A stretch of 63,795 bases of DNA, counting the filler, from Collodictyon triciliatum (lineage: Eukaryota): assembly GCA_043381765.1 (NCBI GenBank). It is 5 parts of 5 records of this genome, joined end to end, with 100 filler letters (N's around TTAATTAATTAA, not from the genome) between each part and the next. Parts side by side here need not be neighbours in the genome. Positions count along the whole stretch, not along the records: positions 14,580 to 29,040 come from JBHJMP010001813.1; 4 more parts are not named here. One strand, written 5' to 3'. The notes under the pieces are model-generated. The model saw only the letters and a list, made by a program, of their open reading frames with translations, ran no database searches and was not told where the DNA came from. A program made the translations under genes and the position numbers. Positions 6,863 through 58,471 of this stretch are shown piece by piece (within the stretch, counting starts at the first letter, position 1; each line of letters begins with the position of its first letter).

Positions 6863-9800
6863 ATGCCTCCCAAACGCGGNNNNNNNNNNNNNNNNNNNNN
6901 NNNNNNNNNNNNNNNNNNNNNNNNNNNNNNNNNNNNNNNNNNNNNNNNNNNNNNNNNNNNNNNNNNNNNNNNNNNNNNNNNNNNNNNNNNNNNNNNNNNN
7001 NNNNNNNNNNNNNNNNNNNNNNNNNNNNNNNNNNNNNNNNNNNNNNNNNNNNNNNNNNNNNNNNNNNNNNNNNNNNNNNNNNNNNNNNNNNNNNNNNNNN
7101 NNNNNNNNNNNNNNNNNNNNNNNNNNNNNNNNNNNNNNNNNNNNNNNNNNNNNNNNNNNNNNNNNNNNNNNNNNNNNNNNNNNNNNNNNNNNNNNNNNNN
7201 NNNNNNNNNNNNNNNNNNNNNNNNNNNNNNNNNNNNNNNNNNNNNNNNNNNNNNNNNNNNNNNNNNNNNNNNNNNNNNNNNNNNNNNNNNNNNNNNNNNN
7301 NNNNNNNNNNNNNNNNNNNNNNNNNNNNNNNNNNNNNNNNNNNNNNNNNNNNNNNNNNNNNNNNNNNNNNNNNNNNNNNNNNNNNNNNNNNNNNNNNNNN
7401 NNNNNNNNNNNNNNNNNNNNNNNNNNNNNNNNNNNNNNNNNNNNNNNNNNNNNNNNNNNNNNNNNNNNNNNNNNNNNNNNNNNNNNNNNNNNNNNNNNNN
7501 NNNNNNNNNNNNNNNNNNNNNNNNNNNNNNNNNNNNNNNNNNNNNNNNNNNNNNNNNNAGAAATAGTCGACGAAGCGGATGAAAGGCCACAAAAATCCAC
7601 TACTAAGAGAGCAGCCATCGCCAAATCCTTGTCTGTGTGGACGCAGCATAAGACCTGCCTCATCCGAAGCGGCGGTGTGGAGTCATCTGCTGTGGTTTAC
7701 GGCTTTGACATGGTTTGTTTTCGTCATATAACATTTCATAATATGGAACCCTGCCTCTGGCCAGATATGATTCCAACTTTGTTGTGGTTTGTAGCGCTCA
7801 TGGATGTTATCATTAGGACGACACGCTCATCAAGACGAAGAGCGGTGAGAAGTTCCCAAAGTCCGCAGATGATTGGGTCTTTTGGGACAAATCCGTATGA
7901 ACTATGCCTCTTTCTCTTTTGAAATCATCCCTTTCAAATACTCTATTGTTATTCCTATTAATGCATATGGAGATTCTTATCACCTACATCTGGTGGGCTC
8001 AGGTCCCAGAGAAGCTGCAAAAGCTTAGCCTAACAGGGTATGAAGCCTAATAGAAATGTTACACCATACAACATACACCAGAGATAATTTGATTGTCAAT
8101 TTTTCATGTTACTTTGTGCATGTAATACCTTTTGTTTGTTTTGTTTGTGGACACATGCATTAACGCCGATGCTTCAATAAGTGCAAAATTGGTCATCTTC
8201 ACCAACCAAGCGGGCATCTCCAAGGGCCACGTAGATGCGGAGGTGCTTAAGACAAAGATTGCCGCCATCATCGATGCTGTAAGGGACATATAGTTATCCA
8301 AACATGTGCATGTGATTCATACCTGCACGGCTTTTTCTACTTTTTCCAGAAAAAGCGTGTTTGTTTATAATGCGTTACGAAGCCGTGATTCTCGTGCACA
8401 CAGATTGGCGTGCCTATTCAAGTATTTATGTCCACAAAAGACGATACGTTCCGCAAACCAAGCACGGAAATGTGGGACTTGATGGCCCTTATGTACAACG
8501 GGTCCATTGACATCGGTAATACATGATATATTGGATTGTCATTCGGAAGGATAATTGCGATGATGGTGACCACTTTGCTATTGACGGACACGATGCCTTC
8601 TAAACTGTCTTCCTTCCTCAAACAGACCTATCCAAGTCATTCTATGTTGGAGACGCAGCAGGGCGCAACAGTAACTGGGTACCAGGCAAGCCGAAGGACT
8701 TTTCGTGCAGCGACCGGTCTTTCTTTGCTTCATTCCTTCTCAAACCACTTTTTATTCTTTATATTTACTTTCTTTCCCATTTTTCCAGTGTATTCTACCT
8801 CTCCACCATTTTATAACATCACGTCGTTTTCGCGTGATATATCAGAAAGTTTGCGCACAATATCGGAGTCAAATTTGCGACACCCGATGAGTTTTTCCTG
8901 GAGCTCAAGGCCCCCCCGTTCAATTGGGGCTCGATCAATCCAGAGACTGTGAAATCTGGTCTGATGGAATCTCATAACTTTGTCCCAACCACCATGTGCT
9001 CTTAATTCTTTTCACCATTCTTTTCATCATTCTTTTCACAATTCTTTTCATCATTCTTTTCACCATTCTTTTCACCATTCTTTTCACCATTCTTTTCATC
9101 ATTCTTTTCATCATTCTTTTCATCATTCTTGTCACCATTCTTTTCATCATTCTTGTCACCATTCTATTCACCATTCTATTCATCATTCTTGTCGCCATTC
9201 TTTTCATCATTCTTTTCATCATTCTTTTCACCATTCTTTTCATCATTCTATTCATCATTTTTTTCATCATTCTATTCATCATTTTTTTCATCATTCTTTT
9301 CACCATTCTATTCACCATTCTTTTCATCATTCTTGTCACCATTCTTTTCATCATTCTTTTCACCATTCTATTCACCATTCTTTTCATCATTCTTGTCGCC
9401 ATTCTTTTCATCATTCTTGTCACCATTCTTTTCATCATTCTTGTCACCATTCTTTTCATCATTCTTGTCACCATTCTATTCATCATTCTTTTCATCATTC
9501 TTTTCACCATTCTTTTCATCATTCTTGTCGCCATTCTTTTCATCATTCTATTCACCATTCTATTCATCATTCTTTTCACCATTCTTTTCATCATTTTTTT
9601 CATCATTCCGTTCATCTGACCATCTGCCCAAACACCCAAACCAGACAAGCCGCTCTTCACACCCAGCACACCGCCCCTTGTGTCTGCGAAAAAAGAGGTT
9701 AGCATTTCCCTGCCTTGTGCCTTTTCCTTGTGTGTTCGTTGTGTGTGACCCGCTTTTCGCTGCCGTAGCTGATCCTCCTTGTCGGGCCACCAGCCAGCGG

Positions 9801-14479: not shown

Positions 14480-14579
14480 NNNNNNNNNNNNNNNNNNNNN
14501 NNNNNNNNNNNNNNNNNNNNNNNTTAATTAATTAANNNNNNNNNNNNNNNNNNNNNNNNNNNNNNNNNNNNNNNNNNNN
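14480..14579. other. Artificial scaffold-joining spacer N44-TTAATTAATTAA-N44
   Basis: Identical 100-nt structure at four places; the core has stops in all six frames. Confidence 0.97.
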
Positions 14580-14600: not shown

Positions 14601-15569
14601 CTTTGTATCCCAGGCAATAGCCACCAAGGAAACCACCAAACATCCATCAAACTTCTTACTCAGGCCCTTGTTGATGTACTTTAGTTACATACATATGACC
14701 CTTATGTGTCTCATTTTAAAAGTTTGCAGTTATTTACATAATTATTTCATTTTACTTTGTAACTCACGGGAGAAAAAATAAAGCTTGGCCTTTTGAAAGG
14801 AACTGTCCAGGAAAACATCGAATCTAGAGTATATTCTGAACCATGATGTCATAAATTTGATAAAATATGATAAAGCTTAGCCCATCATAACATATCCTAT
14901 TGTCATGCTTCCCAGCTGTACCTATATATTTAGGACTGCGTAGTATTCATAGTGGCATACTTTCATAGAATTTCACGCGGTTTTACATGCATTCCATCGG
15001 CCATTGGTTGGGAATGGACGTTCACGACACACCAATCATTCCGACATCAACAAAGCTCGTTCCGTGCGTGAGATATACCCCTCCTCCCTTTGGTTCAAAA
15101 CCAAAGCTGTTCATAACGTGAAGCATCCAATTTATTTATTGTGCTCCTTTTCCTTCTATTTAATATTTATTTTCTTTTTTCTGTCTTTTTTTTTCTTTCG
15201 TCTTCCTTTTTTCAGTGGGATGATTGTCACTGTAGAGCCCGGCATTTACATCCCAGACGAGCCCGACATCCCAGCTGAGTAATATATAGACTTTACCTCT
15301 AAAGGATAAAAAGAGAAGAGGCAACGAAATGAATAATAATAATAAAAAAAAAAAAACAATCAACTCAGCCTCCGGGGAATTGGAATCCGGTTGGAAGACG
15401 ACGTCCTTGTTACCTCATCCGCCCCAGAGGTAAAGTAACACCACAACGCAGACCTTTCATCCCGCAACCACACGACCGGACTACCCTTTAATCCGATCCC
15501 GACCCACAGACCCTGACGCACGAAGCCATCATCGACCTCGACGCAGTCCTGCAGTCCAAAGCATCATAA
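14601..15569 (+). CDS. Xaa-Pro aminopeptidase (M24B, PepP/Icp55-like), C-terminal exons only
   Basis: RFYMHSIGHWLGMDVHD, PGMIVTVEPGIYIP, LRGIGIRLEDDVLVT metal-binding motifs; 5' end lost at scaffold edge. Confidence 0.92.
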
Positions 15570-21141: not shown

Positions 21142-21221
<80 letters not shown>

Positions 21222-21231
21222 ACACACAAAT

Positions 21232-21280
<49 letters not shown>
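21142..21280. repeat. (CA)n microsatellite
   Basis: Visible. Confidence 0.97.
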
Positions 21281-21284
<4 letters not shown>

Positions 21285-21458
21285 GTTTTTGACTTTAATC
21301 ACAACCCTATAAACCAACCTAGGGACATTCAGAGCCTAAAGTGTTCGATCCTTTGTGCTGAAAGCAGAGAGCCCCTGTAAAAAAGCAGCAATCAGCAAGG
21401 CTTGTAAAAAAAGTAAGTAAAGAAAGCGAGAGCTATACTTTTCAGAGAAAATAATAGA

Positions 21459-22964
21459 ATGGCCTCGAAGAATGACGCTCCTAAGGTTCGTGAAGTAAAG
21501 CTGGTTTTGTTGGGAGACGTTGGTGTGGGAAAATCCTCGCTTGTCAATCAGTTTGTCCAAAACACCTTCAATCCGTATGCGGAGCCAACTATTGGGTACT
21601 TTTATTTATCATATGACACTTATCACAACTTATTGATATTGGCAAAATTGTACCTGAAATGCTTTGTCATAACACTCTCATGGATCTTTGAAGAAGAAAA
21701 AGAAAGCATAGCACTTTTATATGATCATTTTCTTATGCACATATTATTCGTCGTAATTTCAAGGTTACTCTATATGATCATATATGTATTGACTCTGCGT
21801 CATTTTACAAGTGCTTCCTTTATGACAAAAAATCTCACTGTGGATGACATCGCCATTAAGTTCCAAATATGGGATACTGCCGGACAAGAAAATACCAGTC
21901 CAATAACACAAACCTTCCTTTCAAATATATTGCGTCAACATGCCATAAAGTGTATATTTAAATAAGTTAGAATTTAATGACTACGACCATGGGGTTTCCC
22001 CCTCTGTTCTTGTCTGGTTTTTTTTCTTTTTTAAAAAACCATCACCGTTGTCATTATCATCGATTGGACCTTCAATTGTGATATATACGATACCGTGGAC
22101 TTGCTCCGATGTACTACAGAGGTGCCGCAGCTGCAATTGTTGTGTACGATATCACCCAAAAGGTTATCTGACTATCTCTTTTAAATAATGTGTAATCATT
22201 TCATTTCACATGATTTTCCTCGCTGAATCTCGCTGATGTAACAAAATAAGTGAATAAATCATCCAGGAGCAACTATTTTGTAGATTTTTTTATTTATATT
22301 TCATGCCTATATTTTTATATTTTCAAAACTCCATAATTGCTCACCATGCTTTTTTGTTTGTTTGTTTGTTTGTTTGTTTGTTTGTTTGTTTGTTTGTTTG
22401 TTTGTTTGTTTGTTTGTTTGTTTGTTTGTTTGTTTGTTTGTTTGTTTGTTTGTTTGTTTGTTTGTATGGTTGTTTGTATGGTTGTTTGGTTACTTGTTTG
22501 TGATATTTCGTATGAATACATGCCATCCAGACATCATTCCAAACTCTGCAAAGATGGGTTAAAGAACTGAGGACGCTTGGACCTGAAAACATTGTGATTG
22601 CAATTGCCGGAAATAAGGCAGATTTGGAAGAAAACCGAGAGGTCGACACAGAAACTGGACGCCAGTATGCGGATGAAATCGACGGACTCTTTGTCGAGAC
22701 CTCTGCAAAGACGAGTCGAAATGTGAATGAGATGTTTGTTGAGATTGGTAAGATATGATTATGTGTGTGTGTCCCTCTCTATATTTCATTTTCGAAAGGA
22801 TTTGATGAACAATATATGATTATATTCATACTGAATGGCTGTGATAAACTCTTTTCTTAGCTCGCAAACTGCCTCTGGAAGCACAACCAACAAAGAAGCC
22901 TGGTAACATCAAAGTGGACGTGCCACCACCCACAAAGACAACAACAAGTGGCGGTTGCTGCTAA
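21459..22964 (+). CDS. RAB22: Rab GTPase, Rab22/Rab31 subfamily (Rab5 supergroup); 5 exons
   Basis: [86 protein letters not shown], C-terminal GGCC prenylation site. Confidence 0.92.
21892..22088 (+). other. AT-AC intron (minor-spliceosome-like) in the Rab gene
   Basis: Removal of ATACCAGT...GACCTTCAATTGTGATATATAC restores GQE-A|GA-TAC (GQERY); no GT-AG pair fits. Confidence 0.88.
22351..22463. repeat. (TTTG)n microsatellite in Rab intron 3
   Basis: Visible. Confidence 0.97.
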
Positions 22965-23750: not shown

Positions 23751-26700
23751 TCACTTCTTCACCACAGACAGAAGGTATTTGAGGGAGTTGAGACAGGACA
23801 GGCCCCGCTGCTTTGCAACAGCGTAGAGCTTATCGAGTGATTTGCGGTCGAGAATCTCTGGATAGCGTTGATACTCATTGCAGTTTGAGAGAGCAACCAC
23901 AACAGCATCGATGACTTGGTCATTTGCACTGACAACTGCGAGTCTCTGGAGATGTACAAAGACCTGCTCTTTCAGTAGTGCCTCAAAGATAGAGGTATTC
24001 AGCTCAGAAGGTATGGAAGGGTCCTGGTGGACGGGAGCACAGAGGAAAGAGATGAAGCAGGCGTATTCCCATGCAGACTGATGTACCATAGCCTGAGCCC
24101 TGGGAACGGTAGAGGAAGCTGTTTGCGCGTACTCTTGAATCAAGCGGATGGCGACGTGGTGGCATTTGATGGCAATGCCGCAGCCGCTAGTCAACAGGGC
24201 TTGGAGACCAGCCTTGGATTCTGTGAGCATCTTGAGGCAGCGCCACGCCGTGATAGATGTGGAGAGCATGTGATGGTCAATGAGGGAGCTGAGCACATCG
24301 ACCACCTCGGGAATGGCCTTGATGAGGGCTGTGACGAGGGAAAAGTGAGTCATGTGCGAGAGCCCAGAGGAGAGGAGCTGACTGAGGATGTGGTTGGAGC
24401 TTTGTCTTAGACGCACACCAAGGGTGGTGAGGCCTGAGGAAGTCTTGAGTTCGTGTCGCCCTTCGTCCGAGTCGAAGAAGCGAATCATCACGTAGTAGAG
24501 GTGATATTCGAGAATGGTTTGGGTGGAAGGATAGCATGCGTCCAAGGAAGTTGACGGGGTGAGTGGCTGCGTTGAATTTGAGCATGAAAGAATAATGTCC
24601 GTTTCTCCGTTGGCGACACTGACGAGTGTGTGGAGGGTGGCTTTGCTTTCCATTAGTCGAGAGGAGAAGAGAAGGGAGATGTTGCCAGGGGCGTAGGTCA
24701 GTTTGCTCAGAATGCCAAAAGCGCGGGAGAGCATCCCCATCAGGACTACGGCGAGAGGCTCTTTAGAGAGCCTGGACAGGATTGCTGGGATTATGTACTT
24801 TGAGCGAAGCAAAGAGAGAAAGTCTGCCAGAAACGGGCCCACCTTCTCGACAGGACTCTTTGCGAGTTGTGCTAGACGACCTGGGCACAGAAGCGGGTCT
24901 ATGTTTAGGCCCTTTGATCCAGTGAGTTCGATGAGGGTTGCAGTGCGGTTGGGGAAGTCTACTGACAAGTCCTGGAGAACGGCATTCAGGAGAGAATTGA
25001 AGAGATTGTCGTTGAAAGTTTTCTTGACTGTGGAGAGAAGGATGTCTTCAAGGCCGGGCATAGAGTCTTGCGCACGGATGAGGCAGCCAGCTGAGTAGAG
25101 AAGGGAAGTTCTCAACCTCTCTGGGCCGTAGACTTCGATGAGCTGGAGCATGGGCTCTGGTTGGAGTGGATGGACAAGGAGTGCCGCTTCGTAGTCAAGG
25201 CGTGCGAGTGTGGCTTCACCCATGCTTTGGCGACACAGCCCCATCATGACAAAGTTTTGAGGGAAGTAGGAGGAGGAGCGAGAGATACGGTCGAAGCAGT
25301 TGAACGCGCGTTGCATATACGGGAGTTGGGGATCGGGTTGAGATTGGGATTCAAAGTGAGATTGAGATTGAGATTGAGATTGAGATTGAGATTGAGATTG
25401 AGATTCGGGGTGAGATTGAGGGTGAGCTTGAGATTGTCCAAATCGATGAGCGATGCCGGGGACAGCAAGGTCGGCCATTGCGCTGCCTTGTTCCCAAAGA
25501 GCCAGAGGGGTCTTTTTCGTGAGAACCATAATCTCTAGAATGTCCGAGACGGATTCGATGGCCTTTTTTTCTTTTGCGGATGGGCTCAGAACGAGGCCGA
25601 GGTCCTGGGTGAGGTTCTCAAAGACATAGTCCGGGTCGACCAAGTCGACGAGGTCCGAGTCAGGGAGAGGTGGAAGGTCGGAAGCGAAGAGGTACTTTTC
25701 GCGGACAAGGTCGATCCAGAGACGGACCCTCACCTCGGGGGCAAAAGCAGTGAGGAAGAAGCGGACAAGGATGTCTGCCAGATGGGGGGCATGGGTGGAC
25801 AGGGAAGCGCGAGTTCTTTTGCGGGCCTCCTGCTTGAGGGCGCGACGGACACATTCTGAGGCAGCCTCGCGTTTCCAGCGCAGAAGGACGGAGGGGGTTG
25901 CGTGGAGGATCTGGAGTGTGCGGCCAAGATAGCGCATGTTGACGCCGCGGTAGCGCAGGAGGGCGGGGAGGGGCCACGGCATGTCGAAGCGCAGACAGCG
26001 CACAACGGCGGGGATGCGTTCGTGGAGGAGACAGCGGGTTGCGCGGGCGAGCGCGTGGGGGCCGGCGGCGGGCGTCTGCGCGTGGGACGGGAGCGGCTCC
26101 GGGTAGCCCTTGACAAACTCCGGGCGGAACTGCAGGAGGGCGCGGACGGCGGGGAGGGCGTCCGGGGCGGCGGCGGGGTCCACGGCCGGGACGAGGGATG
26201 CGATGCGCGAGATGCCGATGCAGCCGTCCGGGTCGCTGCGCAGGGGCGGGTGAGATGCGGATAGACAAGGGAGAAGGGAGAAGGGAGAAGGGAGAAGGGA
26301 GAAGGGAGAAGGGAGAAGGGAGAAGGGAGAAGGGAGAGAGAGAGAGGTGGTGGGCACCTGTGTCTGTGCAGCGAGAGTGCGCCGTACACCCAGCGGCGGC
26401 CCGAGAAGCAGCCGGCCAGATTCATCTCCGCGGCCAGCAGGCGTGCACACTCCTCGACGGCGGGGGTGTGTGCGAGGCGCGTGCGCGTGCGTGCAGGGCG
26501 GGCGATGGCGCGGAACCCGGCGTACTGGACGCGACAGACGAGGGGCGGGCGGGGCCGTGTGCGGGTGTCCACTGCAGATGCGGATGCGGATGCGCCGTCC
26601 AGCACGCAGTGTGCGCGGAACTCGTTGCCGGCGGCCTTCCACGCCCACGTGTCGTCGCCCCCAAAGGCCCCGCGCACGTCGCACGCCACGCGCAGCACCA

Positions 26701-27814
26701 GCCGCCCCCTGCGGAAGACACGCACGCTGCCCGCCCCGCCGTCGCACACGTGCGCAACCGTCTTCTCCGGCGCGGGGCGTCGCCACTCCTCCACCACCGT
26801 GCGCAGCAGCCCGCCGCACCGCGCCTCCATCGCCCCGACGAGCTGCCCGAGCCTCGCCGCCCGCGCATACACGTCGGCCGCCGCTGTGGCTGTTGTGGCT
26901 GTTGTGGCTCCGACGCCGCCCTCGCGCACGATGCCCAGGTACTCGCCCTCCCAGTCGCGCTCGTCCTCCCCGTAGTCGTCGCCGTCGCCGTCTTCGTAAT
27001 CATCGTCGTAATCGTCCTCGCCGTCGCTGCCGGAGGAGAGCGAGGAGGGCGCGTCGAGGTAGACGGTCTCCTGCGGCTGCGGCTTCTGTTGTGGCTTCTG
27101 CTGTGGCTGTGGCTGTGGCTGTGGTAGCTTCTGCTTCTGCTGTGGCTGTTGTGGCTTCTGCTGCGGCTCGGGCAGGGGCCGGAAGAGGATCTCGTCGTCG
27201 GCGTCGGGATCGGCAGCGGGATCGGCAGGGGCCTTGCGTGCGGGCGGGCGGGGCTGCGGGGCGGCGAGCAGCATCTGCAGCAGGTGGTGCAGCAGCTCGT
27301 TGGGGCCCATGGGGTCGTGCAGGACCAGGTTGCGGAAGATGGTGTTGAGGCAGCGGAACCAGTCGCCCGGGCGCGCGTGCGGCGAGAAGAAGCGGGTCTC
27401 GTGCTCCAGCGCGTGGTGCAGGCAGATCATGTGCGGGAAGCGGGCCGCCTGCGCGTGCGCCGGGTCCAGCTGCACATAGACAAAGTCCCCCAGGTGCCAG
27501 ACGCCCTTGCGCGTGCCCCGCTCCCCCACAGGCCCCGTGAAGTACTCCAGCCGGTCCACGTACAGGTACCCGTACCGCTGCCGCCACGTGCGGAACCGCT
27601 TGCCCTGCTTGTCCAGCCACCCCTCCAGCACCGCGCGCTGCCGCCCCGCCGCCCCGCCCCCGTAGCTGTTGCCGTTGCTATTGCCGTTGCTGTTGCTATT
27701 GCTGTTGCCGCTGCCGCCCCCGAACAACTCCCCAAACCCCGCTGCCTCAACCTCCTCGTCCTCCGAGTCCCCCAGCGGATCCTCCGTCACGTGCGAGACT
27801 CGTCGCTCGCCCAT
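23751..27814 (-). CDS. PH domain + Clu (clustered-mitochondria/TIF31-like) domain + TPR/ARM-like helical protein; one intron 26236-26357
   Basis: PH: VLEGWLDKQGKRFRTWRQRYGYL...DWFRCL; Clu-like: AFGGDDTWAWKAAGNEF, PLVCRVQYAGFRAIA, LQFRPEFV, LRYRGVNMRYLG; phase-2 GT-AG intron joins ORFs 27814 and 23751 (HRH-S-DPDG). Confidence 0.8.
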
Positions 27815-27989
27815 CTCCTCCTTTCGTTCTTTCTTTCTTTCGGTTTCTCCCTCGTGTCCTTTCGCTGGCTTGTATTGATCTGCTCTCGACGCTCCTCATT
27901 CTACCTCTCTCTCTCTTTCTCCTTCGTTGCTTTGTGTTTCCCGTCACATTCACATTTCTGGAATATCCGTGCCTTCTTTAGAAATGCGT

Positions 27990-29040: not shown

Positions 29041-29140
29041 NNNNNNNNNNNNNNNNNNNNNNNNNNNNNNNNNNNNNNNNNNNNTTAATTAATTAANNNN
29101 NNNNNNNNNNNNNNNNNNNNNNNNNNNNNNNNNNNNNNNN
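29041..29140. other. Artificial scaffold-joining spacer N44-TTAATTAATTAA-N44
   Basis: Same 100-nt structure. Confidence 0.97.
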
Positions 29141-33985: not shown

Positions 33986-34674
33986 CCCGAGAATACAACT
34001 AGTGTCCGGCTCCTGCACCAGCCAGTCAGGAATCAGGCAGGCATTATGTGGGATTACATGTTGGGACACAGGGAAGCTGATCTGCCTATGTTTCTGTGTT
34101 TCTGTGTTTTTATCTTCTTTTTCTTGTGCAAGCAGATGAGTTTCTTTCAGCAGGCACAGACGCCAGCATGTTAATTTCCACATTAGACCCGCAGATCAAA
34201 TGGTACCGTACCTAGCCACACAGGTCGCTTTCGCAATTCTCTTCGGTCACGAGAGGCTTTTGGTGTGTCGGTGAGAGAGACAGAAAGAAGAAAATAAAAT
34301 AGGGGGTCACGTGATAAAGAAAAAAAGCTGCTGTTTTGCCAGCAGCAGAGTCAACGTGCAAGCATCAATGGACCCACTTGTTCATCAAGAAGGGGCATCA
34401 ATTTTCCGTCCATTCCCAAGCATCCAATCCTCTCGTCTATACTTTCCTCTTTTTTTTTTCTGTTTATTTTTTTCCTCCTCCCTCCCTCCCTCCCTTTTTT
34501 TTTTTTCCTCCCTCTTTCCTTTCTTCTCCATGATGTTACCGCAAATGCCGCAAACTCGCTCACTGCGTATATGCCCACACAGGTTGCCTGAGATAAACAT
34601 TTCCCGCTAGACATACAAGTGATTGGGCGTAGACCGAGGAGCTTTTGTGCAATAATACCCACACGAAAAACAGA

Positions 34675-36483
34675 ATGATCCCAAAGGCCGCACCGGGGTT
34701 CCTTCTCGGCATAATTCTCCTCGCGGTGTTGACCTTTGATTCCTGGGTAGGACCATCTGCAACAGGGGCTATCTTTGGGTTCATGGGTAGCAAAGAATTG
34801 GACGAAAAGGAAGTCCCCGGGTTGGACGTTGGGAGAATGACCATGGCGAGCTTAGTGAATCCCAAACTCAACAAGCATCCATATCAGCGGATTGGAGAGT
34901 TGGATAATGCTGCTATGAATACGACAAAACAGCTTTTCTTGAAACACAAGGGGTCCAATGGCCGCCGCCAGAGATTGTCTGCAAAAAACATCACGATCTC
35001 AGCGCATGAGGCGTATGTCTGGTCTAAAGCAAAGTTCCGCATTTTGTGGAGCAAGAGAGGATTATGGTCGTGTGTGGAACACTGCGCATCTCATCGTTTA
35101 ACATACTTTCAGCTCCATCCCAAAATTCCCTGCTCCGCATCTATGACGTGCTCGTATGAAAAATATCCTGTTCACGAGAGCGTCCCCATCAAGTATGAGA
35201 TGAAGAAAAGTGTCAGATGCAAGGCAAATAACGAAGCTGCGTGCCCTCGTGCCTTGCTTGGTGGATGCAACTCTTTCACTTGGATCGTTCGCCGGGTCAC
35301 TCTGAATACCCCAAAGAGGACATACTCCAGGTTTGTGCAGGATCTGGTAATGAAGGAAGGCCATCCATTTCGAATCCATGCTGTAATGGACTCAGATTAC
35401 GTGGGCTACTGGTTGGTCGTGTCGTTTTATCTGCCAAATATCCTCTTCCACGATAAATGCAATCGACTTTATTGCATTTACACCGATATAACGCGGGACA
35501 TTTATGAATACCAACCTGCTTTACCTGGAGATGCTAGTTTTGCCTACTGTCCAATCCCTTCCTTCCCAGCCACCGAGCAAACCAGGTTGCAACTCGCCTA
35601 TCGCCCAGAAGTCATGTCATCTCCATACCAATTAGTGGTCGAGTCTCGTGTCACAGATATCCCGTATGTCAACATGACCATCTGTGTAATGGTTCGCAAG
35701 GAGGCGGAGAATATGGTGGAGTGGATAGAATTCCATCGCATGATGGGGTATGGCAGGTTCATCATATACGACAACAATCCTTACGGAGAACCCGACGAGT
35801 TTATGGAAGAGTTGCTGCGCATTTATCCCGACAACATTCTCATCCGAAGGCATTGGAAGCTACCACACTCGCAAACTGAGGCTTATACGGATTGCATCAA
35901 TCGCTACGGGAAGACCACCCTTTGGATGACGCTGATTGATGTGGATGAATTCATTGTACCTCATCCCCACCACCCAACAGTCATGTCGGTGTTGGAAATG
36001 AGAACCAGCCGCCACTCCAACATCCACGTCACATGGCTGACTTTCGGGCCATGCGGAGAGGAGGAACGCAAGCGAGGACAGTTGATGATGGACCTGTGTC
36101 ATTTCACTACGAAGCCCTCCTCAGATTACCCAAAGTCGATATTCAAGGCAGATCTCACAGCTGGAATGCAAAACTACGGACCCCACTTCATACGACTCAA
36201 GAGAGACCTCGGAAAAAATATCATGAGCCGGAATTCGGTCACAAAATACCTGCGAAACTATCACTACCGATACAGAACTCATCCTGAATTCATCCAGCGA
36301 CGAAAAGGTCCTCGAGCCGGTCGGGCACTGACATGGTCACTCTCTGAGCTCGAGCAAGAGTGGAAGGATGGGATCAAATACAGCGAGCGACTGAGTGACG
36401 AAGACAACTGGATGCTTCGATTTCGTGACGAGCTGAAGAAACGCACCGAAAAAATCTTTTCACTTATTTTGCAAGGCGAGTAG
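34675..36483 (+). CDS. Type II membrane glycosyltransferase, GT92/GT2-like; intronless
   Basis: N-terminal TM (FLLGIILLAVLTF); CVMVRKEAENMVEWIEFHRMMGYGRFIIYDN, AYTDCINRY, WMTLIDVDEFIVP (DxD), PKSIF, NYHYRYRT. Confidence 0.88.
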   Translation: MIPKAAPGFLLGIILLAVLTFDSWVGPSATGAIFGFMGSKELDEKEVPGLDVGRMTMASLVNPKLNKHPYQRIGELDNAAMNTTKQLFLKHKGSNGRRQRLSAKNITISAHEAYVWSKAKFRILWSKRGLWSCVEHCASHRLTYFQLHPKIPCSASMTCSYEKYPVHESVPIKYEMKKSVRCKANNEAACPRALLGGCNSFTWIVRRVTLNTPKRTYSRFVQDLVMKEGHPFRIHAVMDSDYVGYWLVVSFYLPNILFHDKCNRLYCIYTDITRDIYEYQPALPGDASFAYCPIPSFPATEQTRLQLAYRPEVMSSPYQLVVESRVTDIPYVNMTICVMVRKEAENMVEWIEFHRMMGYGRFIIYDNNPYGEPDEFMEELLRIYPDNILIRRHWKLPHSQTEAYTDCINRYGKTTLWMTLIDVDEFIVPHPHHPTVMSVLEMRTSRHSNIHVTWLTFGPCGEEERKRGQLMMDLCHFTTKPSSDYPKSIFKADLTAGMQNYGPHFIRLKRDLGKNIMSRNSVTKYLRNYHYRYRTHPEFIQRRKGPRAGRALTWSLSELEQEWKDGIKYSERLSDEDNWMLRFRDELKKRTEKIFSLILQGE

Positions 36484-43586: not shown

Positions 43587-43686
43587 NNNNNNNNNNNNNN
43601 NNNNNNNNNNNNNNNNNNNNNNNNNNNNNNTTAATTAATTAANNNNNNNNNNNNNNNNNNNNNNNNNNNNNNNNNNNNNNNNNNNN
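43587..43686. other. Artificial scaffold-joining spacer N44-TTAATTAATTAA-N44
   Basis: Same 100-nt structure. Confidence 0.97.
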
Positions 43687-43761
<75 letters not shown>

Positions 43762-43813
43762 AAAAAAAACAAAAAACAAAAAACAGAAATAAAACAAAAA
43801 AATTGCCTGCAGG

Positions 43814-46800
43814 ATGGAGTCCAGCCAAGGCAACCCACCGAAAGCTGCTGCTCCCTTCAGCTTCGGAGCGCCCCAAGCTGCAGTCCCGCTTCCCAGCCAC
43901 CCAAACACGGCAACTTTCCACCAAGTCTACTTTCAAGGACCGGGCCAACAATTCCAAGTCCGATCATCATTTTCACTGCCCGAACACAACCACACGCAGT
44001 CCGATTCCACACACGTGATCAGACCCGTTCCGATCCACGCGGCCACACCTGAAGCAGGCGGATTATTTGGCTCACAGCCAAAGGTGCCATCAAACGAGCT
44101 GCTATTCCATACACCTGTCTTTCCCCAACCGCAAGCCTTCTCAACACACAGCGTTTCGTTGGCCCCTATATCCCCAACACAACCTCACTCCCACTCGCAC
44201 TCCCACTCGCACTCCCAACCTCAATCACAGTCAATACCACTATATCAAGCTCAATCCCAACCACAAACAATATTCCAACCACAATCCCAATCCCAATCTC
44301 AATCTCAATCTCAATCACTGCAACAACCTCAGCCTCTGACAACATCAACTCAAGGCTCAGTTACCAGTACAGGCATAAATCCGCATTTGCTAACCCCAAC
44401 TCACACCATGCATCATCCACTGAATCCAATGACCCACCCAAGCGCAGCACAGAGCAGAGGACTGGAATCCAGCTTCGATAGCACCCAGATACATTCAGAT
44501 AGTGCAAACGGCTTCATGTCAGGATCATACCCGCTCAGGCAAAACACCACACGTGTAAACCCGTCTGCACCCGAGGGACAATCCATCATTTCCGCTCATT
44601 ACGGCGGAATCTCTGGTGCGCTGAGTAGCCCATCCACCCAAAATCCGATTCCCCCTTTTCTTTCAAAGACTTACGACATTGTAGACGACCCAGAGACAAA
44701 CGACATCGTATCTTGGAGTAATAACGAAAGCAGCTTTGTGGTCCACAAGCCAATCGAATTCTCTAGAGACATCCTGCCCAAGCATTTCAAACACAACAAT
44801 TTTTCGTCGTTTATTCGCCAATTGAATACATATGGTTTCCACAAGCTGGACCCCGACCGATGGGAATTCAGCCACCCTTCCTTCCGACACGGTCACAAAG
44901 ATTTTCTTCGTCATATTTCTAGACGCAGAACGAATCCCTCTTTACCTACACCAAACGCTCCAAGAAGCCACACGGTTGAGATTGGAAATTTTGGGAATCA
45001 CGACGAGCTGGAGCAGCTGCGAAGAGATCGAGACTTGCTTGTTGCAGAACTGGTAAATCTGAGACAAGAGGGCCATAATATGCAGCAATTACTCCAAAAA
45101 TTCGTACAGGAGATGGATGATAACAAAAGGAAAACATCGGAAATAAATAAGAGAGTGGATAGAGTCTTGAACTTTCTGCAGCTTTTAATACAACCAGGTA
45201 TATATGTTAAAAAATGAACCTTATAAGCGAATAAAATCAGCATTTTTCTTTTAAAAAATTATGCTGGATAGTATGATATTTGTACAATATTTGTACGGTG
45301 TCATTTTCTCTTCTTTAAAAAAGAACGTCCTATAGGTGGAGGTGGGGCAGTCGGTTTATTTCTTAAGAAAAGGAGACGCGCCGAGGGAATAAGTCCNNNN
45401 NNNNNNNNNNNNNNNNNNNNNNNNNNNNNNNNNNNNNNNNNNNNNNNNNNNNNNNNNNNNNNNNNNNNNNNNNNNNNNNNNNNNNNNNNNNNNNNNNNNN
45501 NNNNNNNNNNNNNNNNNNNNNNNNNNNNNNNNNNNNNNNNNNNNNNNNNNNNNNNNNNNNNNNNNNNNNNNNNNNNNNNNNNNNNNNNNNNNNNNNNNNN
45601 NNNNNNNNNNNNNNNNNNNNNNNNNNNNNNNNNNNNNNNNNNNNNNNNNNNNNNNNNNNNNNNNNNNNNNNNNNNNNNNNNNNNNNNNNNNNNNNNNNNN
45701 NNNNNNNNNNNNNNNNNNNNNNNNNNNNNNNNNNNNNNNNNNNNNNNNNNNNNNNNNNNNNNNNNNNNNNNNNNNACTGAGCTATCACTCTTGGAGTCGA
45801 ACACAACCAGACTTCAAGATTTCGAGGATATTATCATGGATATCGTTGATTCAAGACAGGATTTACTAACTAGACCATTCAACCCCAATAGCTTCTCTAT
45901 TCGCGAGATACAAGAAATTCGAGACGGAGAAGCGTGGACACCCAACCAGGCCACCAATGTCGCATCTCCACTCGATAGTCCATCTCCACATCCATCGCAG
46001 CCACAATCACATATTAAAATGCAGCTGCAAGCACAGACAACCCAAAAACAGCAGCAACATCTACCACCAAGATTCTCTGCAGCTAGTGTAGCTCAAACTC
46101 ACACGAAGATGACCCCAGGACCCTCTAATATGCACATTCCCCAAAGTCCCCCAAATATTACAACACCCTCCTCTTCAACACCTCAGCATTACCAAAAGCT
46201 GGAGCATATATCTACCAACACACCCATGAATTCTTTGCAAAACCAAAGTGGACAACTATATCAACAAGGACAATCGCCTGTATACTCTGGTCCGTCGTAT
46301 AACCCCGCTGTGCCACCAAACACATCTTACTCATCACAACCACAAATATCACAAGCACAATCGCAAGCACAGTCGCAATCACAGCCACAGTATACATACC
46401 ACACTGGGCAGTCAAAAGGCCATCATCACCAACAAACGCAACCAGAGTACAGAAACCCAGCCCAAGAAATATCTAGTTCTCGTCCAGGAAATGTTGGCAT
46501 CGAAGATGATGTAGAAACAGAGGTCGAGATATCCATTGCAAATCCATATCCCACTTCTAATCATCCAGACGCTCATACGACCACTTACCGCTTTTCACAA
46601 ACACATATGCAAACGCCCTCACACCACAGCCAAGGTCTTTCTCAGTCCCAAGACCAAAGACTTATGCAATCAGCCTCCGGGCCGATGCCTTCTCATTCCT
46701 CGTTTCATTCCCACGGAAGCCTATATGCACACCCAATCGGACAAATACAATCGCAATCGCATTCTCAATCCCAACTTCAACCACAATCTCAACCTCAATC

Positions 46801-48855: not shown

Positions 48856-51800
48856 ATGGCCGAAGTCGCCCAAGAAGATGCAAACACATTCAGCAACCTC
48901 GCAAAGGCACTCGCAAACAATGGTTTGTCCAGAGCTCTCCCGCTTGCCCATCACTTGCTCGTACAATATGTTGCCCTTCTCTCTCCTTTCCAAGCTTTCC
49001 TCCTAATCGGCGATGTAACTGTGTCAGTTTAGCATCAAGCTTTCAGTTATCCTGCTCTCACGACCGCTGCTTTCTCACCTACATAATCAGAAAAGAAAAT
49101 TCGTGATGCGGCGATGAAGAGTCTGTCTTCCTGGCTCCTGCGTTCACAGGATATATCCGAGCTGGACATGGCCAAACTCTGCCGTGGATTGTTCTTCTGT
49201 AGGCATCTAGATCTTATCATTATATGTTGGTCTGTGAGAAACACCTATTTTTTTCTTTACTTGCTCCAGAATTCTCCGAGCTGTATCTATTCTCTTTTAT
49301 TCTTTTGTTTATATAATTATTATCTATATTATTGTCTATGAATGCACACGTGTATTCAACTCGCTGCTGGCCAAGCCATCATTTTTTCAACACTTCTCAA
49401 TGTCATCGCTTAGGTATGTGGTGGTCGGATAAACCTCTTATTCAGATGGATGTAGCTGAGAGGATTGCAAAGCTTGTAGCGACGTATCAAAGGGAGGGAA
49501 TACCCATTGCAGAAGCCACCAAAAAGACTCTTTTATTTATTCGCACCATGATGGCTGAGATAGACTGTGAATGGATTCGTATTGATCGATTGAGGTTTCG
49601 TATAGTCCTTATTTCCACTCTAAATGAACCAGCATGTCATAAATAAAAGAGAGAGAGAGGGAGAGAGAAAGAAAAGAAATGACTTTGCTTTTTTTTCTCT
49701 CCCGCGTAATTGTCTCGATTAGCAGAATTTCTCTAAAAAATAAAAAAACCGATAAAATATTATAAAATGTAGGCTCGATAAATTTTACTCTCTTATTCGA
49801 AAGCTAATATATCAGAGTATGATATTGGTTATTCGTTGGGAGATGGATCCAGTTTTTTGCACACCTTTTTTCGAGTTTCTAAGAAGCGAAGTCATATACC
49901 CCAATCTGAACAAGCCCAGCGGCATTCGCTACCATGTCATTGACTTATATATCGATGCCATCAAGTTTTGTCTAGAACAGGCCTATCCCCAACTCGCCAA
50001 AATTGAAGAGAACAATGGCCAAGTGCTGGATTTAAAAATACCAGATGCTGCTATCGATTTATTTTTGAGCCCTATCTTTTCGTTGATACCAGATATCCAT
50101 GATAAAATTTATGCAAGACATGTTTCAGAGATGATATTTGAAAAACTGCTGGATGAATCCTTTATCCCTTATTTAAATCTGAACCATTTGGCCTCTTCGA
50201 TATTCTCTGTGGCCGGTCAACCGTATGTGTGAAAATAGCCATCATTATTATTCATGTATATTAGACATCCGCAAGTTATGACTCGACTATGTCTTATAAT
50301 ATATGCAAGACTCAGTATGATTTGAACATTTACATACCGCCGCATATACTAAAAATTTTCTCTCTCGTAATGGCAGTAAAACATCTGGCTATCTCCGAAG
50401 ACTGCTTTACGCAGTATACGCAAAATACCAAAAGAAGAACCGTGATTTGTACCCTGATGTAGTTATTTAACATCTACTTTACAATTTTTCAATATATGTT
50501 TTCGGTATTTTTATCATAATTATTCGTAAATTATCTGAATTTGAAAATTCTAAAAAGATACCCTCCTATGAATCACACATGGGGAGAAAAAAGTCGCTGC
50601 TGGCTAATGTGGAATGCTGATTTAAACATTTATATGTAGCAAAAATGGGTCTTAGCCACCGACGAACAGGATAATAAGTCCGGAGAGAAGCGAAAAAGGT
50701 CCACTAAGAACGACAAGCTAACAGAGAATATGGATAGTACCCTGACAACTGATATTCCTCTTGCCAGCAATACTGAGTCAAATCAGAGTGTGAATATCAT
50801 TGATGAATCAAGTGAAGATTTTTCTTTGACTATTTCATACTAACGCTCATATTTTCGTAATTTCTATGGGCGATGTTATACAATTGTTACATCATGCATC
50901 GTGGTCATGCGACCATCTTTTGCCTCAATTGAGAAAGACATGCATTTAACATTGAATGTACTAATGGTACCCACCAATTCATAGAATCAGAGACAAAGCC
51001 AGACAAGAAGAAAAAGTCCAAAAAGATAAAACAAGAGCCCCAAGTCGCAGAAGAACCAAGTTCTCAATCTGAAGTTGTAGAGTCCGCCGAGCCACCTCAC
51101 AAGAATGCACCCGTCGAAGCTGTGAGCTTTTCATCATATGAGATACACCTTCTTTCCTACCTTCTTTCTTTTTTGTTTCCCTTTTACTGATGAGTCATTC
51201 CATTTTTCTTCAACATATATCTTTCTGAAGGCACAGTTTCTTTATGGTCCGCAACTTATACCCAGTGTTTTAGTACATGACACTCTTACTATATCTACTA
51301 ACCTTGGGTGTATCGCAACCCAGGCCCCAGAAAAAGAGGCACCTGCACAAGCTGAGACCAGTCCATCCGGCCCGTCTGGCCTGCCCCCAAAAGCATCGAA
51401 AAAGAGCAAGAAAAAAAGCAAGGCAGACTCGCAGGCAGCTCTGTCTGAGATACCCACCGAAGCAGAATATCAAGAACCCATTCCATCACCCACAGAGGTG
51501 AAGAATGAGATAAAGAGCAACACAAAAGGCAAGAAAAAGAAAACTCAGCCGGAACCCGAGAAACTGCCGCCGGCAGATACGGGCTCAGCCAAGAAGAAAG
51601 GTGTAATCTTTGGGTTGGAACATAATACTGTCAAAGGTAATTTATAATATACTTTCTCAATTTACATGAGCCTATTCATCACATCATTACTCTTGCTGTG
51701 TGAAATTTTTTTTTTATTACAAAGCGTGTTTAAAACACTAATCATGTGCATTTTATTTTGCATGAATATTCGATCAGTGAATCATATTTTGTTGATTTAT

Positions 51801-52393: not shown

Positions 52394-57785
<5,392 letters not shown>

Positions 57786-58132: not shown

Positions 58133-58232
58133 NNNNNNNNNNNNNNNNNNNNNNNNNNNNNNNNNNNNNNNNNNNNTTAATTAATTAANNNNNNNNNNNN
58201 NNNNNNNNNNNNNNNNNNNNNNNNNNNNNNNN
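58133..58232. other. Artificial scaffold-joining spacer N44-TTAATTAATTAA-N44
   Basis: Same 100-nt structure. Confidence 0.97.
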
Positions 58233-58471
58233 TGTATGTATGTATGTATGTATGTATGTATGTATGTATGTATGTATGTATGTATGTATGTATGTATGTA
58301 TGTATGTATGTATGTATGTATGTATGTATGTATGTATTATGTATGTATGTTATTGTATGTTATGTATGTATGTATGTATGTATGTAATGTATGTATGTAG
58401 TATGTATGATTGTATGTATGTATGTATGTATGTATGTATGTATGTATGTATGTATGTATGTATGTATGTAT
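58233..58471. repeat. (GTAT)n microsatellite
   Basis: Visible. Confidence 0.96.

What the first reader, a model, noticed from the sequence alone, without database searches (positions are those of the whole stretch)
21892..22088. AT-AC intron with a non-consensus donor (ATACCAGT) in Rab22: candidate diverged minor spliceosome
Seen: the invariant Rab motif [19 protein letters not shown] is split by 197 nt. The only known terminal pair that restores it is AT..AC (gaa a|ATACCAGT...ATATATAC|ga tac); slid alternatives give TA-CG or AA-TA. ACCTTCAAT (22068-22076) puts adenosines 13-14 nt before the AC, with no polypyrimidine tract. Established: AT-AC ends and a CCTTRAY branch point 10-20 nt upstream mark U12-type introns, whose donor RTATCCTT is normally nearly invariant; the rare U2-type AT-AC introns use ATAAGT-like donors. 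This donor fits neither (C at +4, AG at +6/+7). Inference: this lineage may have a minor spliceosome with altered U11/U6atac donor recognition.
Basis: partly seen in the sequence, partly recalled or inferred. Interest (0 to 1): 0.85.

Follow-up and report, generated by a model that had tools for sequence, protein, structure and literature searches.

The report
Spliced AT-AC intron with odd donor
A Rab GTPase gene of a deep-branching protist has a real, spliced AT-AC intron at a site where other eukaryotes have a minor-spliceosome intron, but its start signal fits neither known spliceosome, so the lineage may read minor introns differently.

Summary
Observation confirmed. The 197-nt AT..AC intron (21892-22088) is real: cDNA contigs of two runs join 21891 to 22089 with no ambiguity. 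The product is [19 protein letters not shown], as in the closest homologue (Rigifila ramosa protein, 82% identity).

The organism is a CRuMs-clade protist; its nearest named relatives are Rigifila and Diphylleia.

A metagenome scan found introns at the same site and phase in Rab5-family genes:
- Canonical U12 donors (ATATCCTT): 15 loci, 4 genes.
- U2-like AT-AC donors (ATAAGT, ATACGT, ATACTA): 7 loci, 5 genes.
- Wherever the downstream exon could be read, the intron ends in AC.

So this intron descends from an old U12-type AT-AC intron. Its donor ATACCAGTC fits neither the U12 consensus nor the very weak local U2 pattern. No intron examined here has a polypyrimidine tract, so that cue is uninformative.

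Two hints favour a lineage-specific extended donor:
- Unspliced contigs that read as another Rab align through the same 9 intron bases.
- One STT3 intron pairs GTACCGTTT with TTCTTAAC 9 nt before its AG.

No genome is held, so snRNAs and minor-spliceosome proteins could not be examined.

Verdict: the diverged-minor-spliceosome reading is plausible (about 0.42) but unproven. A 'trapped' U2-type AT-AC intron is the main rival (about 0.36).

The parts
21459..21595 (+). Rab5/Rab22-family GTPase, exon 1 (ATG at 21459). cDNA 5' ends lie at about 21454-21457, so the 5' UTR is about 5 nt.
21596..21811 (+). Intron 1, GT-AG (GTACTT...ACAAG), phase 2.
   Evidence: Joint in X1 and X2; spliced aligner.
21812..21891 (+). 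Exon 2, ending WDTAGQE plus the first base of the Arg codon.
21892..22088 (+). The AT-AC intron: 197 nt, phase 1.
   Evidence: Joint 21891 to 22089 in 1 contig each of X1 and X2, both = 0.
21892..21900 (+). Donor 9-mer ATACCAGTC. Four non-self contigs (1 in X1, 3 in X2), which read as other Rab genes, also align through these 9 bases.
   Evidence: records 3, 5, 7, 8 align up to 21900 and then diverge
22068..22076 (+). Branch-point-like ACCTTCAAT. It reads as CCTT-C-AAT, i.e. the U12 motif TCCTTAAC with one extra C. Its A's lie 13-14 nt before the 3' end.
22063..22069 (+). ATTGGAC, perfectly complementary to intron positions +7 to +13 (GTCCAAT, 21898-21904). This is a possible 7-bp helix between the two intron ends; support is weak.
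   Evidence: It is in the MFE structure but not the centroid, z = -1.45. Shuffle p = 0.038; 4 of 22 introns have a 7-bp helix.
22089..22162 (+). Exon 3 ([25 protein letters not shown]).
22163..22530 (+). Intron 3, GT-AG. It contains a (GTTT)n run at 22356-22463.
   Evidence: Loose end after 22162 equals window 22531 onward.
22531..22747 (+). Exon 4.
22748..22860 (+). Intron 4, GT-AG. Placed by homology only.
22861..22964 (+). Exon 5, ending ...SGGCC plus the TAA stop.
55217..55363 (-). STT3 intron 10: GTACCGTTTC...GTTCTTAAC, then 9 nt, then AG. Phase 1, with T at exon position -1. It is the only other intron in the window that shares RTACCR, and it has the best U12-like branch motif.

Best explanation
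Shown:
- This is a genuine intron that is spliced out of the mRNA of a Rab5/Rab22-family GTPase gene in a CRuMs-clade protist.
- It descends from an old U12-type AT-AC intron that sits at exactly this codon and phase (WDTAGQE | R) in Rab5-family genes of other eukaryotes.
- Its 5' signal is now ATACCAGTC instead of ATATCCTTY.
- Its branch region is ACCTTCAAT, 13-14 nt from the 3' AC.

Inferred, and my leading reading:
- The intron is still removed by a minor-type (U12-like) spliceosome whose donor recognition has shifted in this lineage to an extended motif of the form RTACCR(K)T(Y).
- That shift would require matching changes in the U11 and U6atac snRNAs.
- The branch site would still be read by a roughly canonical U12.
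- A at +1 and C at the last position would keep the usual AT-AC end pairing.
For: 1. Splicing at AT|AC is seen in cDNA contigs of X1 and X2.

2. Same site and phase in other organisms. Of 62 metagenome loci matching WDTAGQE+A|ATA:
- 15 loci (4 distinct genes) start ATATCCTT. In the 3 of these genes where the next exon could be found, the intron ends AC and has TCCTTAAC or TCCATAAC upstream.
- 7 loci (5 genes) have other ATA donors.
- 40 loci are not introns (38 read QEN[KR]GG as coding sequence; L045 and L046 also read on as coding sequence).

3. The donor does not look like a local U2 donor.
- C at +4 occurs in 2 of 21 GT-AG donors, C at +5 in 3 of 21, and G at +7 in 2 of 21.
- By hand from those counts, ACCAGT at +3 to +8 is about 0.4 times as likely under the U2 donor frequencies as under plain intron base composition.
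- Exon position -1 is A, whereas 16 of all 22 introns have G there.

4. An extended motif seems to be kept. Four non-self contigs (1 in X1, 3 in X2) align up to 21900, that is 9 nt into the intron, then continue with a different intron-like sequence (TTTCTCT.TAC plus a T run). The upstream letters shown read as other Rab sequences...TTVKFE (X1, position 21865) and ...KN (X2, position 21854).

5. A second intron of the same look exists. Of the 21 GT-AG introns mapped, only STT3 intron 55363-55217 has ACC at +3 to +5.
- It also has the best U12 branch match (TTCTTAAC, 7 of 8, 9 nt before AG), is phase 1, and has a non-G at -1.
- Chance estimates: about 0.011 per intron for the branch match and 0.003-0.012 for the donor. 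Multiplied by hand, that is about 0.003 over 21 introns, before any discount for looking after the fact.

6. YCTT(N)AAY ending 7-16 nt before the 3' end is expected by chance in about 1.8% of random intron ends.

7. Precedent: in Physarum the U12 branch motif and the U12 snRNA changed together (Results section read).
Against: - No minor snRNA or minor-specific protein of this organism could be examined. No genome is held, and two Rfam scans of the window found no snRNA.
- In the papers I read, no lineage has a changed U12 5' splice site; even Physarum keeps RTATCYTT. A change would need both U11 and U6atac to co-evolve.
- The branch-like motif has an inserted C relative to TCCTTAAC, and the donor looks like ATATCC with one T deleted. 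Indels in both cores are what decay after loss of U12 recognition would produce.
- At this very site, 5 of 9 distinct AT-AC genes in the metagenome scan already have non-U12 donors, so leaving the U12 class while keeping AT-AC is common here.
- The shared 9-mer rests on short aligned pieces (36-47 nt, 2-3 mismatches at unknown positions) of de Bruijn contigs. Gene conversion around the conserved WDTAGQE codons, or a chimeric contig, could produce it.
- TTAAC is also a good U2 branch motif.
- Two such introns among 22 would mean an unusually high minor-intron density.
- RTACCRKTY (4 matches, 4.77 expected) and the donor-plus-branch scan (18 matches; 12-31 for control donors) are not enriched in the window.
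Confidence: 0.42

Rival explanations
1. A 'trapped' U2-type AT-AC intron. The ancestral U12-type intron lost U11/U12 recognition, either because the lineage lost the minor spliceosome or through donor mutations. It is now removed by the major spliceosome, which in this organism needs almost nothing beyond the terminal dinucleotides. The AT and AC ends persist because changing one end alone would break the first-to-last-base interaction. ATACC and CCTT.AA are decaying relics of ATATCC and TCCTTAAC.
For: - Local U2 donors are extremely degenerate: only GT is fixed in 21 of 21, with +3 A/T/G and +4 to +6 mixed. Acceptors lack polypyrimidine tracts (4 further ROCO introns read by eye look the same).
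- At the same site, 5 of 9 distinct AT-AC genes from other organisms have non-U12 donors. Two of these have TACTAA-type branches and pyrimidine tracts (L059, L003).
- Lin et al. 2010 describe this rare AT-AC U12 to AT-AC U2 path and explain why such introns stay trapped (passages read).
- Both motifs differ from the U12 cores by single-base indels.
- No paper in the searched library reports a minor spliceosome in CRuMs.
Against: - The converted introns elsewhere match their own U2 consensus (ATAAGT, ATACGT). This one does not match even the weak local pattern. By my hand count it would offer U1 only about 3 scattered pairs and no G at -1, yet no unspliced contig of this gene was seen.
- An unconstrained donor would not be expected to share 9 bases with other Rab sequences.
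- It would also not be expected to share RTACCR plus a U12-like branch with an STT3 intron.
- C rather than G at +5 is the U12 state. Lin et al. stress G at +5 for U2-type AT-AC introns.
Confidence: 0.36
2. Some other recognition route. Examples: both spliceosomes can use the intron; a variant snRNA of the major system is involved; or splicing is helped by pairing of the two intron ends (positions +7 to +13 with 22063-22069), which brings the donor next to the branch region.
For: - A perfect 7-bp end-to-end helix is present in the minimum-energy fold. Shuffle p = 0.038.
Against: - The fold z-score is -1.45 and the helix is absent from the centroid.
- 4 of 22 introns reach a 7-bp helix.
- In the other Rab contigs the sequence after +9 differs, so the helix would not be conserved unless it is compensated.
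Confidence: 0.15
3. Artefact: assembly error at the donor, a pseudogene, or a processed copy.
For: No independent DNA reads of this organism covered the donor. X1 and X2 come from one study.
Against: - The spliced cDNA has 0 mismatches in exons 2-3 and an open frame of 203 codons.
- The protein is 82% identical to the Rigifila homologue.
- The same 9 intron bases are seen in other contigs.
- Four differences from ATATCCTT are not a typical sequencing error.
Confidence: 0.03

Closest known systems
Canonical U12-type (minor-spliceosome) AT-AC introns, including those found here at the same site of environmental Rab5-family genes (groups L005, L019, L036; L032)
   Same: - AT..AC ends.
- The same codon and phase.
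- No G at exon position -1.
- A CCTT..AA motif with adenosines 13-14 nt before the 3' end.
- Phase 1.
   Different: - The donor matches RTATCCTTT at only 5 of 9 positions (C at +4, A at +6, G at +7, C at +9).
- The branch motif has an extra C.
- Dependence on U11, U12 and U6atac was not tested.
U2-type AT-AC ('type II') introns: the SCN4A/SCN5A introns in the literature, and L056, L042, L059, L003 here
   Same: AT..AC ends with a non-U12 donor. Likely descent from a U12-type AT-AC intron at the same position.
   Different: - Those donors equal the local U2 consensus apart from +1 (ATAAGT, ATACGT), with G at +5 in the sodium-channel cases. This donor has C at +4 and +5 and no fit to the local U2 pattern.
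- Those with readable 3' ends have U2 branch motifs and pyrimidine tracts (L059, L003).
Transformed minor system of Physarum polycephalum (Larue, Elias and Roy)
   Same: A lineage-specific change of a core minor-intron signal, matched there by a changed snRNA. It was first noticed in GTPase genes with AT-AC introns.
   Different: - In Physarum the branch motif changed (TTTGA, with a U12 change) while the donor stayed RTATCYTT. Here the donor is the changed element and the branch looks near-canonical.
- No snRNA evidence is available here.
- RTATCCTT is not enriched in this window (6 matches, 4.15 expected).

Membership tests
U12-type (minor) intron | Terminal dinucleotides AT-AC or GT-AG | tested here: met
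   AT..AC, fixed by the cDNA joint with both = 0.
U12-type (minor) intron | 5' splice site RTATCCTT (extended, nearly invariant) | tested here: not met
   ATACCAGTC matches 5 of 9 positions of RTATCCTTT.
U12-type (minor) intron | Branch motif TTCCTTRAC close to the 3' splice site | tested here: inconclusive
   ACCTTCAAT at 22068-22076 matches only if one C is bulged. A's lie at -13 and -14. The best ungapped match in the last 48 nt is 6 of 8, at distance 30. The chance of YCTT(N)AAY at 7-16 nt is about 0.018.
U12-type (minor) intron | No polypyrimidine tract | tested here: inconclusive
   The tract is absent, but it is also absent or weak in the other 21 introns (pyrimidine fraction 0.41-0.77, A-rich before AG). 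The feature is therefore not diagnostic in this organism.
U12-type (minor) intron | [quoted passage not shown] | tested here: met
   15 loci (4 genes) have ATATCCTT at the same codon and phase. AC ends and U12 branch motifs are present in 3 of those 4 genes.
U12-type (minor) intron | Organism has U11, U12, U4atac, U6atac and minor-specific proteins | not testable with these tools
   No genome is held. Window Rfam scans gave 0 hits at gathering threshold and only 2 repeat-like mir-297 hits at E <= 1.
U2-type AT-AC (type II) intron | 5' splice site equals the organism's U2 consensus except A at +1 | tested here: not met
   Local donors are G|GT[A/T][A/T][G/T]TTT. ACCAGT uses rare letters at +4, +5 and +7 (2, 3 and 2 of 21), and exon -1 is A. 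The local consensus is so weak that this test has little power.
U2-type AT-AC (type II) intron | U2-type branch motif and pyrimidine tract at the 3' end | tested here: inconclusive
   No tract is present. TTCAAT or GTGAT could serve as weak YTNAY-like sites. Local U2 introns are equally vague.
Rab5/Rab22-family small GTPase (the host gene) | Ras/Rab fold with G1-G5 motifs, WDTAGQE switch II and a C-terminal CC prenylation motif; closest relatives are Rab5/22 proteins | tested here: met
   - 70 of 88 candidates scored E <= 0.001, with Pfam Ras (PF00071) precomputed. Source names include Rab-22 and Rab5 family.
- The spliced product is 203 aa, ends SGGCC, and is 82% identical to the Rigifila protein over 180 aa.
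- Whether it is Rab22 proper or another Rab5-group member was not resolved by a tree.

The most novel reading that the evidence does not exclude
CRuMs protists (or at least this diphylleid-like lineage) keep a minor spliceosome whose 5' splice-site code has moved from RTATCCTT to an RTACCR-type motif, with compensating changes in U11 and U6atac. If so, it would be, to my knowledge, the first known co-evolution of the minor-intron donor with two snRNAs. It would also mean that standard tools miss all minor introns of this supergroup.
Probability: 0.38. Interest if true: 0.87.

Novelty: new variant of a known kind. Interest (0 to 1): 0.64.

Why it matters
- Minor-intron donors are treated as almost invariant across eukaryotes, and classifiers rely on that. 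An RNA-verified AT-AC intron that sits at a U12 site but has a different extended donor, in a supergroup near the base of Amorphea whose splicing has not been described in the library I searched, gives a concrete test of whether the donor code itself can evolve.
- If the intron is instead a trapped U2-type AT-AC intron, it documents, together with the environmental series found here (ATATCCTT, ATAAGT, ATACGT, ATACTA, ATACCAGT at one site), how one ancient U12 intron leaves the minor class repeatedly without changing its ends.
- In practice, gene predictors that allow only GY-AG introns will break this Rab gene and its paralogues.

Tried and rejected
Tools that gave nothing:
- Whole-genome search for U12: no genome is held, so the U11, U4atac, U6atac and protein searches were not possible.
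- Rfam on the window: 0 hits at gathering threshold. At E <= 1 there were only two mir-297-like hits in a TG/CA repeat at 58232-58481, which I take as false.
I did not pursue it.

Read laying:
- X7 laid 0 contigs.
- X3 (metagenome) gave only pieces of about 36 nt, less than 95% alike, on the conserved WDTAGQE codons. It shows neither this organism nor its habitat. I drop the 'freshwater' idea that the run list first suggested.

Motif counts in the window, none enriched:
- RTATCCTT: 6 matches, 4.15 expected.
- TCCTTRAY: 5 matches, 11 expected.
- ATACCAGT with up to 1 mismatch: 42 matches, 35 expected. The second exact copy, at 59044, lies inside what looks like a GTTTGT-type intron.
- Donor-plus-branch scan: 18 hits, against 12-31 for five control donors.
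- RTACCRKTY: 4 matches, 4.77 expected. The two extra hits (34198, 43324) have no exon context.

Other leads:
- End-to-end helix: not significant overall.
- STT3 intron 53282-53173 has GTATCCTCAT but no U12 branch motif near its 3' end. I do not count it as U12-like.
- Lineage search with the CLU-like ORF: none of 8000 candidates scored.
- Nop52 homologues were too weak (only 1 of 25 below 1e-10, and that one is a 99% identical ORF fragment) to map more introns.
- Physarum as the source organism: rejected, because GTATCYTT donors and TTTGA motifs are not seen among the 22 introns.
Full report
**What is there**

The window is eukaryotic: about 40% GC, microsatellites, assembly gaps and short introns. 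A five-exon gene on the + strand between 21459 and 22964 encodes a 203-residue Rab5/Rab22-family GTPase.

The finding's coordinates are exact:
- Exon 2 ends CAA GAA A at 21891.
- The intron runs from ATACCAGT at 21892 to ATATATAC at 22088.
- Exon 3 starts GA TAC at 22089.
- ACCTTCAAT is at 22068-22076, with its A's 14 and 13 nt from the last intron base.

Protein logic alone cannot separate AT-AC from a boundary slid by -1. AA..TA also gives QERY, using a CGA codon. A slide of +1 gives QEKY, which more distant homologues do have.

**RNA evidence**

No genome is held for the window, so I used public runs. Of the 21 runs listed, only X1 and X2 held the gene itself. They come from one study and each held 0.24 of the sampled words.

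Laid on 21290-22350:
- One 1007-nt contig of X1 and one 261-nt contig of X2 join 21891 to 22089. The tool reports 'skips 197, AT..AC, both = 0', with 74 and 23 letters on the shorter side and 0 other letters in exons 2 and 3.
- The same contigs join 21594 to 21811 (GT..AG with the cut +1).
- The X1 contig and a separate X2 contig (record 10) go on after 22162 with letters that equal window 22531 onward.
- The two joint-bearing contigs begin at 21454 (X1) and 21457 (X2), directly after adapter-like letters. I recognise these, from recall, as a template-switch oligo end, so they are cDNA and the 5' UTR is only about 5 nt.
- X1 and X2 have no depth inside the intron.
- X7 laid nothing. X3 gave only short, less than 95%-alike pieces on the conserved motif.

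The intron is therefore real, uses AT|AC, and the gene is expressed. This rests on one study, and no independent DNA reads check the donor letters.

**Which organism**

- The nearest protein to the Rab is P0002: 79% on exon 4, and 82% over 180 aligned residues of the spliced product.
- The nearest proteins to the window's STT3 are P0080 and P0081, at 87-93% on single exons.
- The collection names P0002 as Rigifila ramosa and P0081 as Diphylleia rotans. Other high STT3 hits are amoebozoans.
- The window therefore comes from a CRuMs-clade protist, closest to the diphylleid/rigifilid side. It is not Mantamonas sphyraenae, whose genome is 59% GC (passages read).
- In the searched library no paper links U12 to the CRuMs genera, and the only paper holding both 'minor spliceosome' and 'CRuMs' is an unrelated Polycomb paper.

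**What normal introns look like here**

I wrote a protein-to-genome spliced aligner. It uses BLOSUM62 and allows any intron ends, with penalties of 8 for GT-AG, 11 for GC-AG, 13 for AT-AC and 22 for anything else.
- On the Rab gene it recovers the RNA-supported introns and picks AT-AC for the second one.
- On STT3 (57755 to 52400, minus strand) three homologues give the same 18 introns, all GT-AG. One donor, near 54530-54560, is ambiguous.
- Four more ROCO-kinase introns, read by eye, look the same.

Over the 21 mapped GT-AG introns:
- Only GT is fixed.
- Position +3 is A, T or G (9, 8, 4).
- Positions +4 to +6 are mixed and +6 to +8 are T-rich.

Over all 22 mapped introns:
- Exon position -1 is G in 16 of 22.
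- Acceptors are A-rich just before AG. The pyrimidine fraction at -25 to -4 is 0.41-0.77.

**The site is an old U12 position**

I scanned the metagenome contig collection once, with a degenerate pattern for WDTAGQE plus A|ATA. It returned 62 loci. Sorted by what follows the pattern:
- 38 loci read on as coding sequence (QEN[KR]GG, an intronless GTPase). Two others (L045, L046) also read on as coding sequence.
- 15 loci, from 4 distinct Rab5-family genes, start an intron with the canonical U12 donor ATATCCTT at exactly this codon and phase.
  - In 3 of these 4 genes the next exon could be found. The end that restores QER[FY] is AC, with TCCATAAC 13 nt upstream (L005 group) or TCCTTAAC about 36 and 52 nt upstream (L019 and L036 groups).
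  - L032 is cut off.
- 7 loci, from 5 genes, have other ATA donors: ATAAGTGTC (L056, L042), ATAAGTATC (L059), ATACGTATC (L003, L022) and ATACTATTTC (L047, L048).
  - All five genes end in AC in the one locus each where the next exon is readable (L022 and L047 are cut off).
  - L059 and L003 have TACTAA-type branches and pyrimidine tracts, which is a U2 look.

This Rab5/22-group position therefore holds an ancient AT-AC intron that is U12-type in some lineages and has left the U12 class in others without changing its ends. That matches the rare 'AT-AC U12 to AT-AC U2' path and the 'trapped' state discussed by Lin et al. 2010 (passages read). It also matches the U2-type AT-AC class of Sheth et al. 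2006 (passages read).

**Where the window's intron stands**

- Its donor matches RTATCCTTT at 5 of 9 positions.
- It also uses letters that are rare in local U2 donors: C at +4 in 2 of 21, C at +5 in 3 of 21, G at +7 in 2 of 21, and no G at exon -1.
- By hand from the counts, ACCAGT is about 0.4 times as likely under the U2 donor frequencies as under plain intron composition.
- The branch-like motif matches TCCTTAAC only if one C is bulged. A YCTT(N)AAY motif at that distance is expected by chance in about 1.8% of random intron ends.

**Two hints of a kept, extended donor**

First hint: shared intron bases in other Rab contigs.
- Four contigs that are not this gene align to the window up to 21900, which is nine bases into the intron. 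They are X1 record 3 and X2 records 5, 7 and 8, with 36-47 nt aligned and 2-3 mismatches at unknown positions.
- They then continue with a different intron-like sequence (TTTCTCT.TAC and a T run).
- The upstream letters shown read as other Rabs: ...TTVKFE at the X1 start, as in Rab5, and ...LEQKN at the longer X2 start.
- The plain reading is that at least one paralogue has an unspliced intron at the same site with the same, or nearly the same, nine-base donor.
- Rab5 genes elsewhere have ATATCCTTY at this site, so the same new 9-mer in two old paralogues needs an explanation. The candidates are a constraint on a new motif, a conversion tract over the very conserved codons, or a contig chimera.

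Second hint: one STT3 intron.
- Among the 21 GT-AG introns, only STT3 intron 55363-55217 has ACC at +3 to +5 (GTACCGTTTC).
- The same intron has the best U12 branch match of all (GTTCTTAAC, 7 of 8, 9 nt before AG), is phase 1, and has T at exon -1.
- My chance estimates are about 0.011 for the branch match and 0.003-0.012 for the donor per intron. Multiplied by hand, that is roughly 0.003 over 21 introns before any discount for post-hoc choice.
- TTAAC is also a good U2 branch motif, which weakens this hint.

**Weighing the readings**

For a minor-type spliceosome with a shifted donor code:
- U12 ancestry of the site.
- C at +5.
- A branch motif at the U12 distance.
- A poor fit to U2 donors, yet clean splicing.
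- The shared 9-mer.
- The STT3 look-alike.
- The Physarum precedent for signal-and-snRNA co-evolution.

Against it:
- No snRNA or protein of the minor system could be examined. Both window Rfam scans found none.
- No lineage in the papers I read has a changed U12 donor, and two snRNAs would have to follow such a change.
- Both motifs differ from the U12 cores by single-base indels, which is what decay would give.
- Leaving the U12 class at this site is common.
- The window shows no enrichment of RTATCCTT, TCCTTRAY or RTACC-type motifs.
- Two such introns in 22 would be an unusually high density.

My odds:
- Diverged minor reading: 0.42.
- Trapped U2-type AT-AC intron: 0.36.
- Another route, such as dual use or help from the weakly supported 7-bp end-to-end helix: about 0.15.
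- Artefact: about 0.03.

**Novelty and verdict**

- AT-AC introns, U12-to-U2 conversion and transformed minor systems are all known.
- New here is an RNA-verified AT-AC intron at a demonstrable U12 site, with a donor that matches neither class, in a supergroup whose splicing is undescribed in the library I searched.
- I rate it a new variant of a known kind. It is worth a genome-wide follow-up that would settle it quickly: snRNA genes, a junction catalogue and donor logos.

Limits:
- I could not see the supplements of the surveys that might already list this position or these taxa.

Noticed in passing
window 57755-52400 (-): STT3 (oligosaccharyltransferase catalytic subunit) gene with 18 introns, all GT-AG. 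Donors are extremely degenerate and there are no polypyrimidine tracts. It is 87-93% identical on single exons to Diphylleia rotans proteins.
   Followed up: yes
window 53173-53282 (-): This STT3 intron starts GTATCCTCAT (7 of 9 to the U12 donor) but has no U12 branch motif near its 3' end. It also has a 7-bp helix between its two ends (shuffle p = 0.011).
   Followed up: partly
window 21454-21459: cDNA contigs of X1 and X2 start 5 and 2 nt before the ATG, right after adapter-like letters. This suggests a very short 5' UTR and no spliced leader on this mRNA.
   Followed up: no
window 23751-27895 (-): The segment around 24-28 kb is very GC-rich (0.55-0.69, against about 0.39 elsewhere). It has long overlapping ORFs, a weak eIF3_p135/CLU hit and a weak PH-domain hit, plus SPFSLLP and QS repeats. 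A homologue search found nothing (0 of 8000 candidates scored). Its origin is unexplained.
   Followed up: partly
window 34195-29432 (-): ROCO-type kinase gene with LRR, Roc, COR-A and protein-kinase domains. It has long exons and a few short GT-AG introns.
   Followed up: partly
window 34633-36483 (+); 43793-45217 (+); 49756-50232 (+); 14969-15430 (+): Other genes: a GT92 glycosyltransferase in a single 616-codon ORF; an HSF-type DNA-binding protein with long Q/S/P-rich tails; a Nop52 exon; and what reads by eye as the C-terminal exons of an M24-type peptidase next to an assembly gap.
   Followed up: partly
window 6880-7558, 14480-14579, 29041-29140, 43587-43686, 45397-45775, 58133-58232: Runs of N (assembly gaps). 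Several come as paired 44-base blocks flanked by simple repeats.
   Followed up: no
window 21143-21279; 22356-22463; 52552-52663: Long microsatellites: (CA)n just upstream of the Rab gene, (GTTT)n inside Rab intron 3, and (TG)n inside the last STT3 intron.
   Followed up: no
L019/L060/L001/L004/L051 and L014/L029/L036/L050/L057/L062: In these GC-rich environmental Rab5 genes the canonical U12 AT-AC intron has its TCCTTAAC motif unusually far from the AC end (about 36 and 52 nt), separated by a G/T-rich spacer.
   Followed up: partly
38 of the 62 loci (e.g. L015, L034, L009): A large family of intronless GTPase genes reading ...IDLWDTAGQEN[RK]GG.LRDAYLKGA in metagenome contigs. Neither the family nor its hosts were identified.
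   Followed up: no
L059 and L003/L022: AT-AC introns with ATAAGTATC or ATACGTATC donors, TACTAA-type branches and pyrimidine tracts at the same Rab5 site. They have the look of a U2-type intron in a fungus-like genome.
   Followed up: partly
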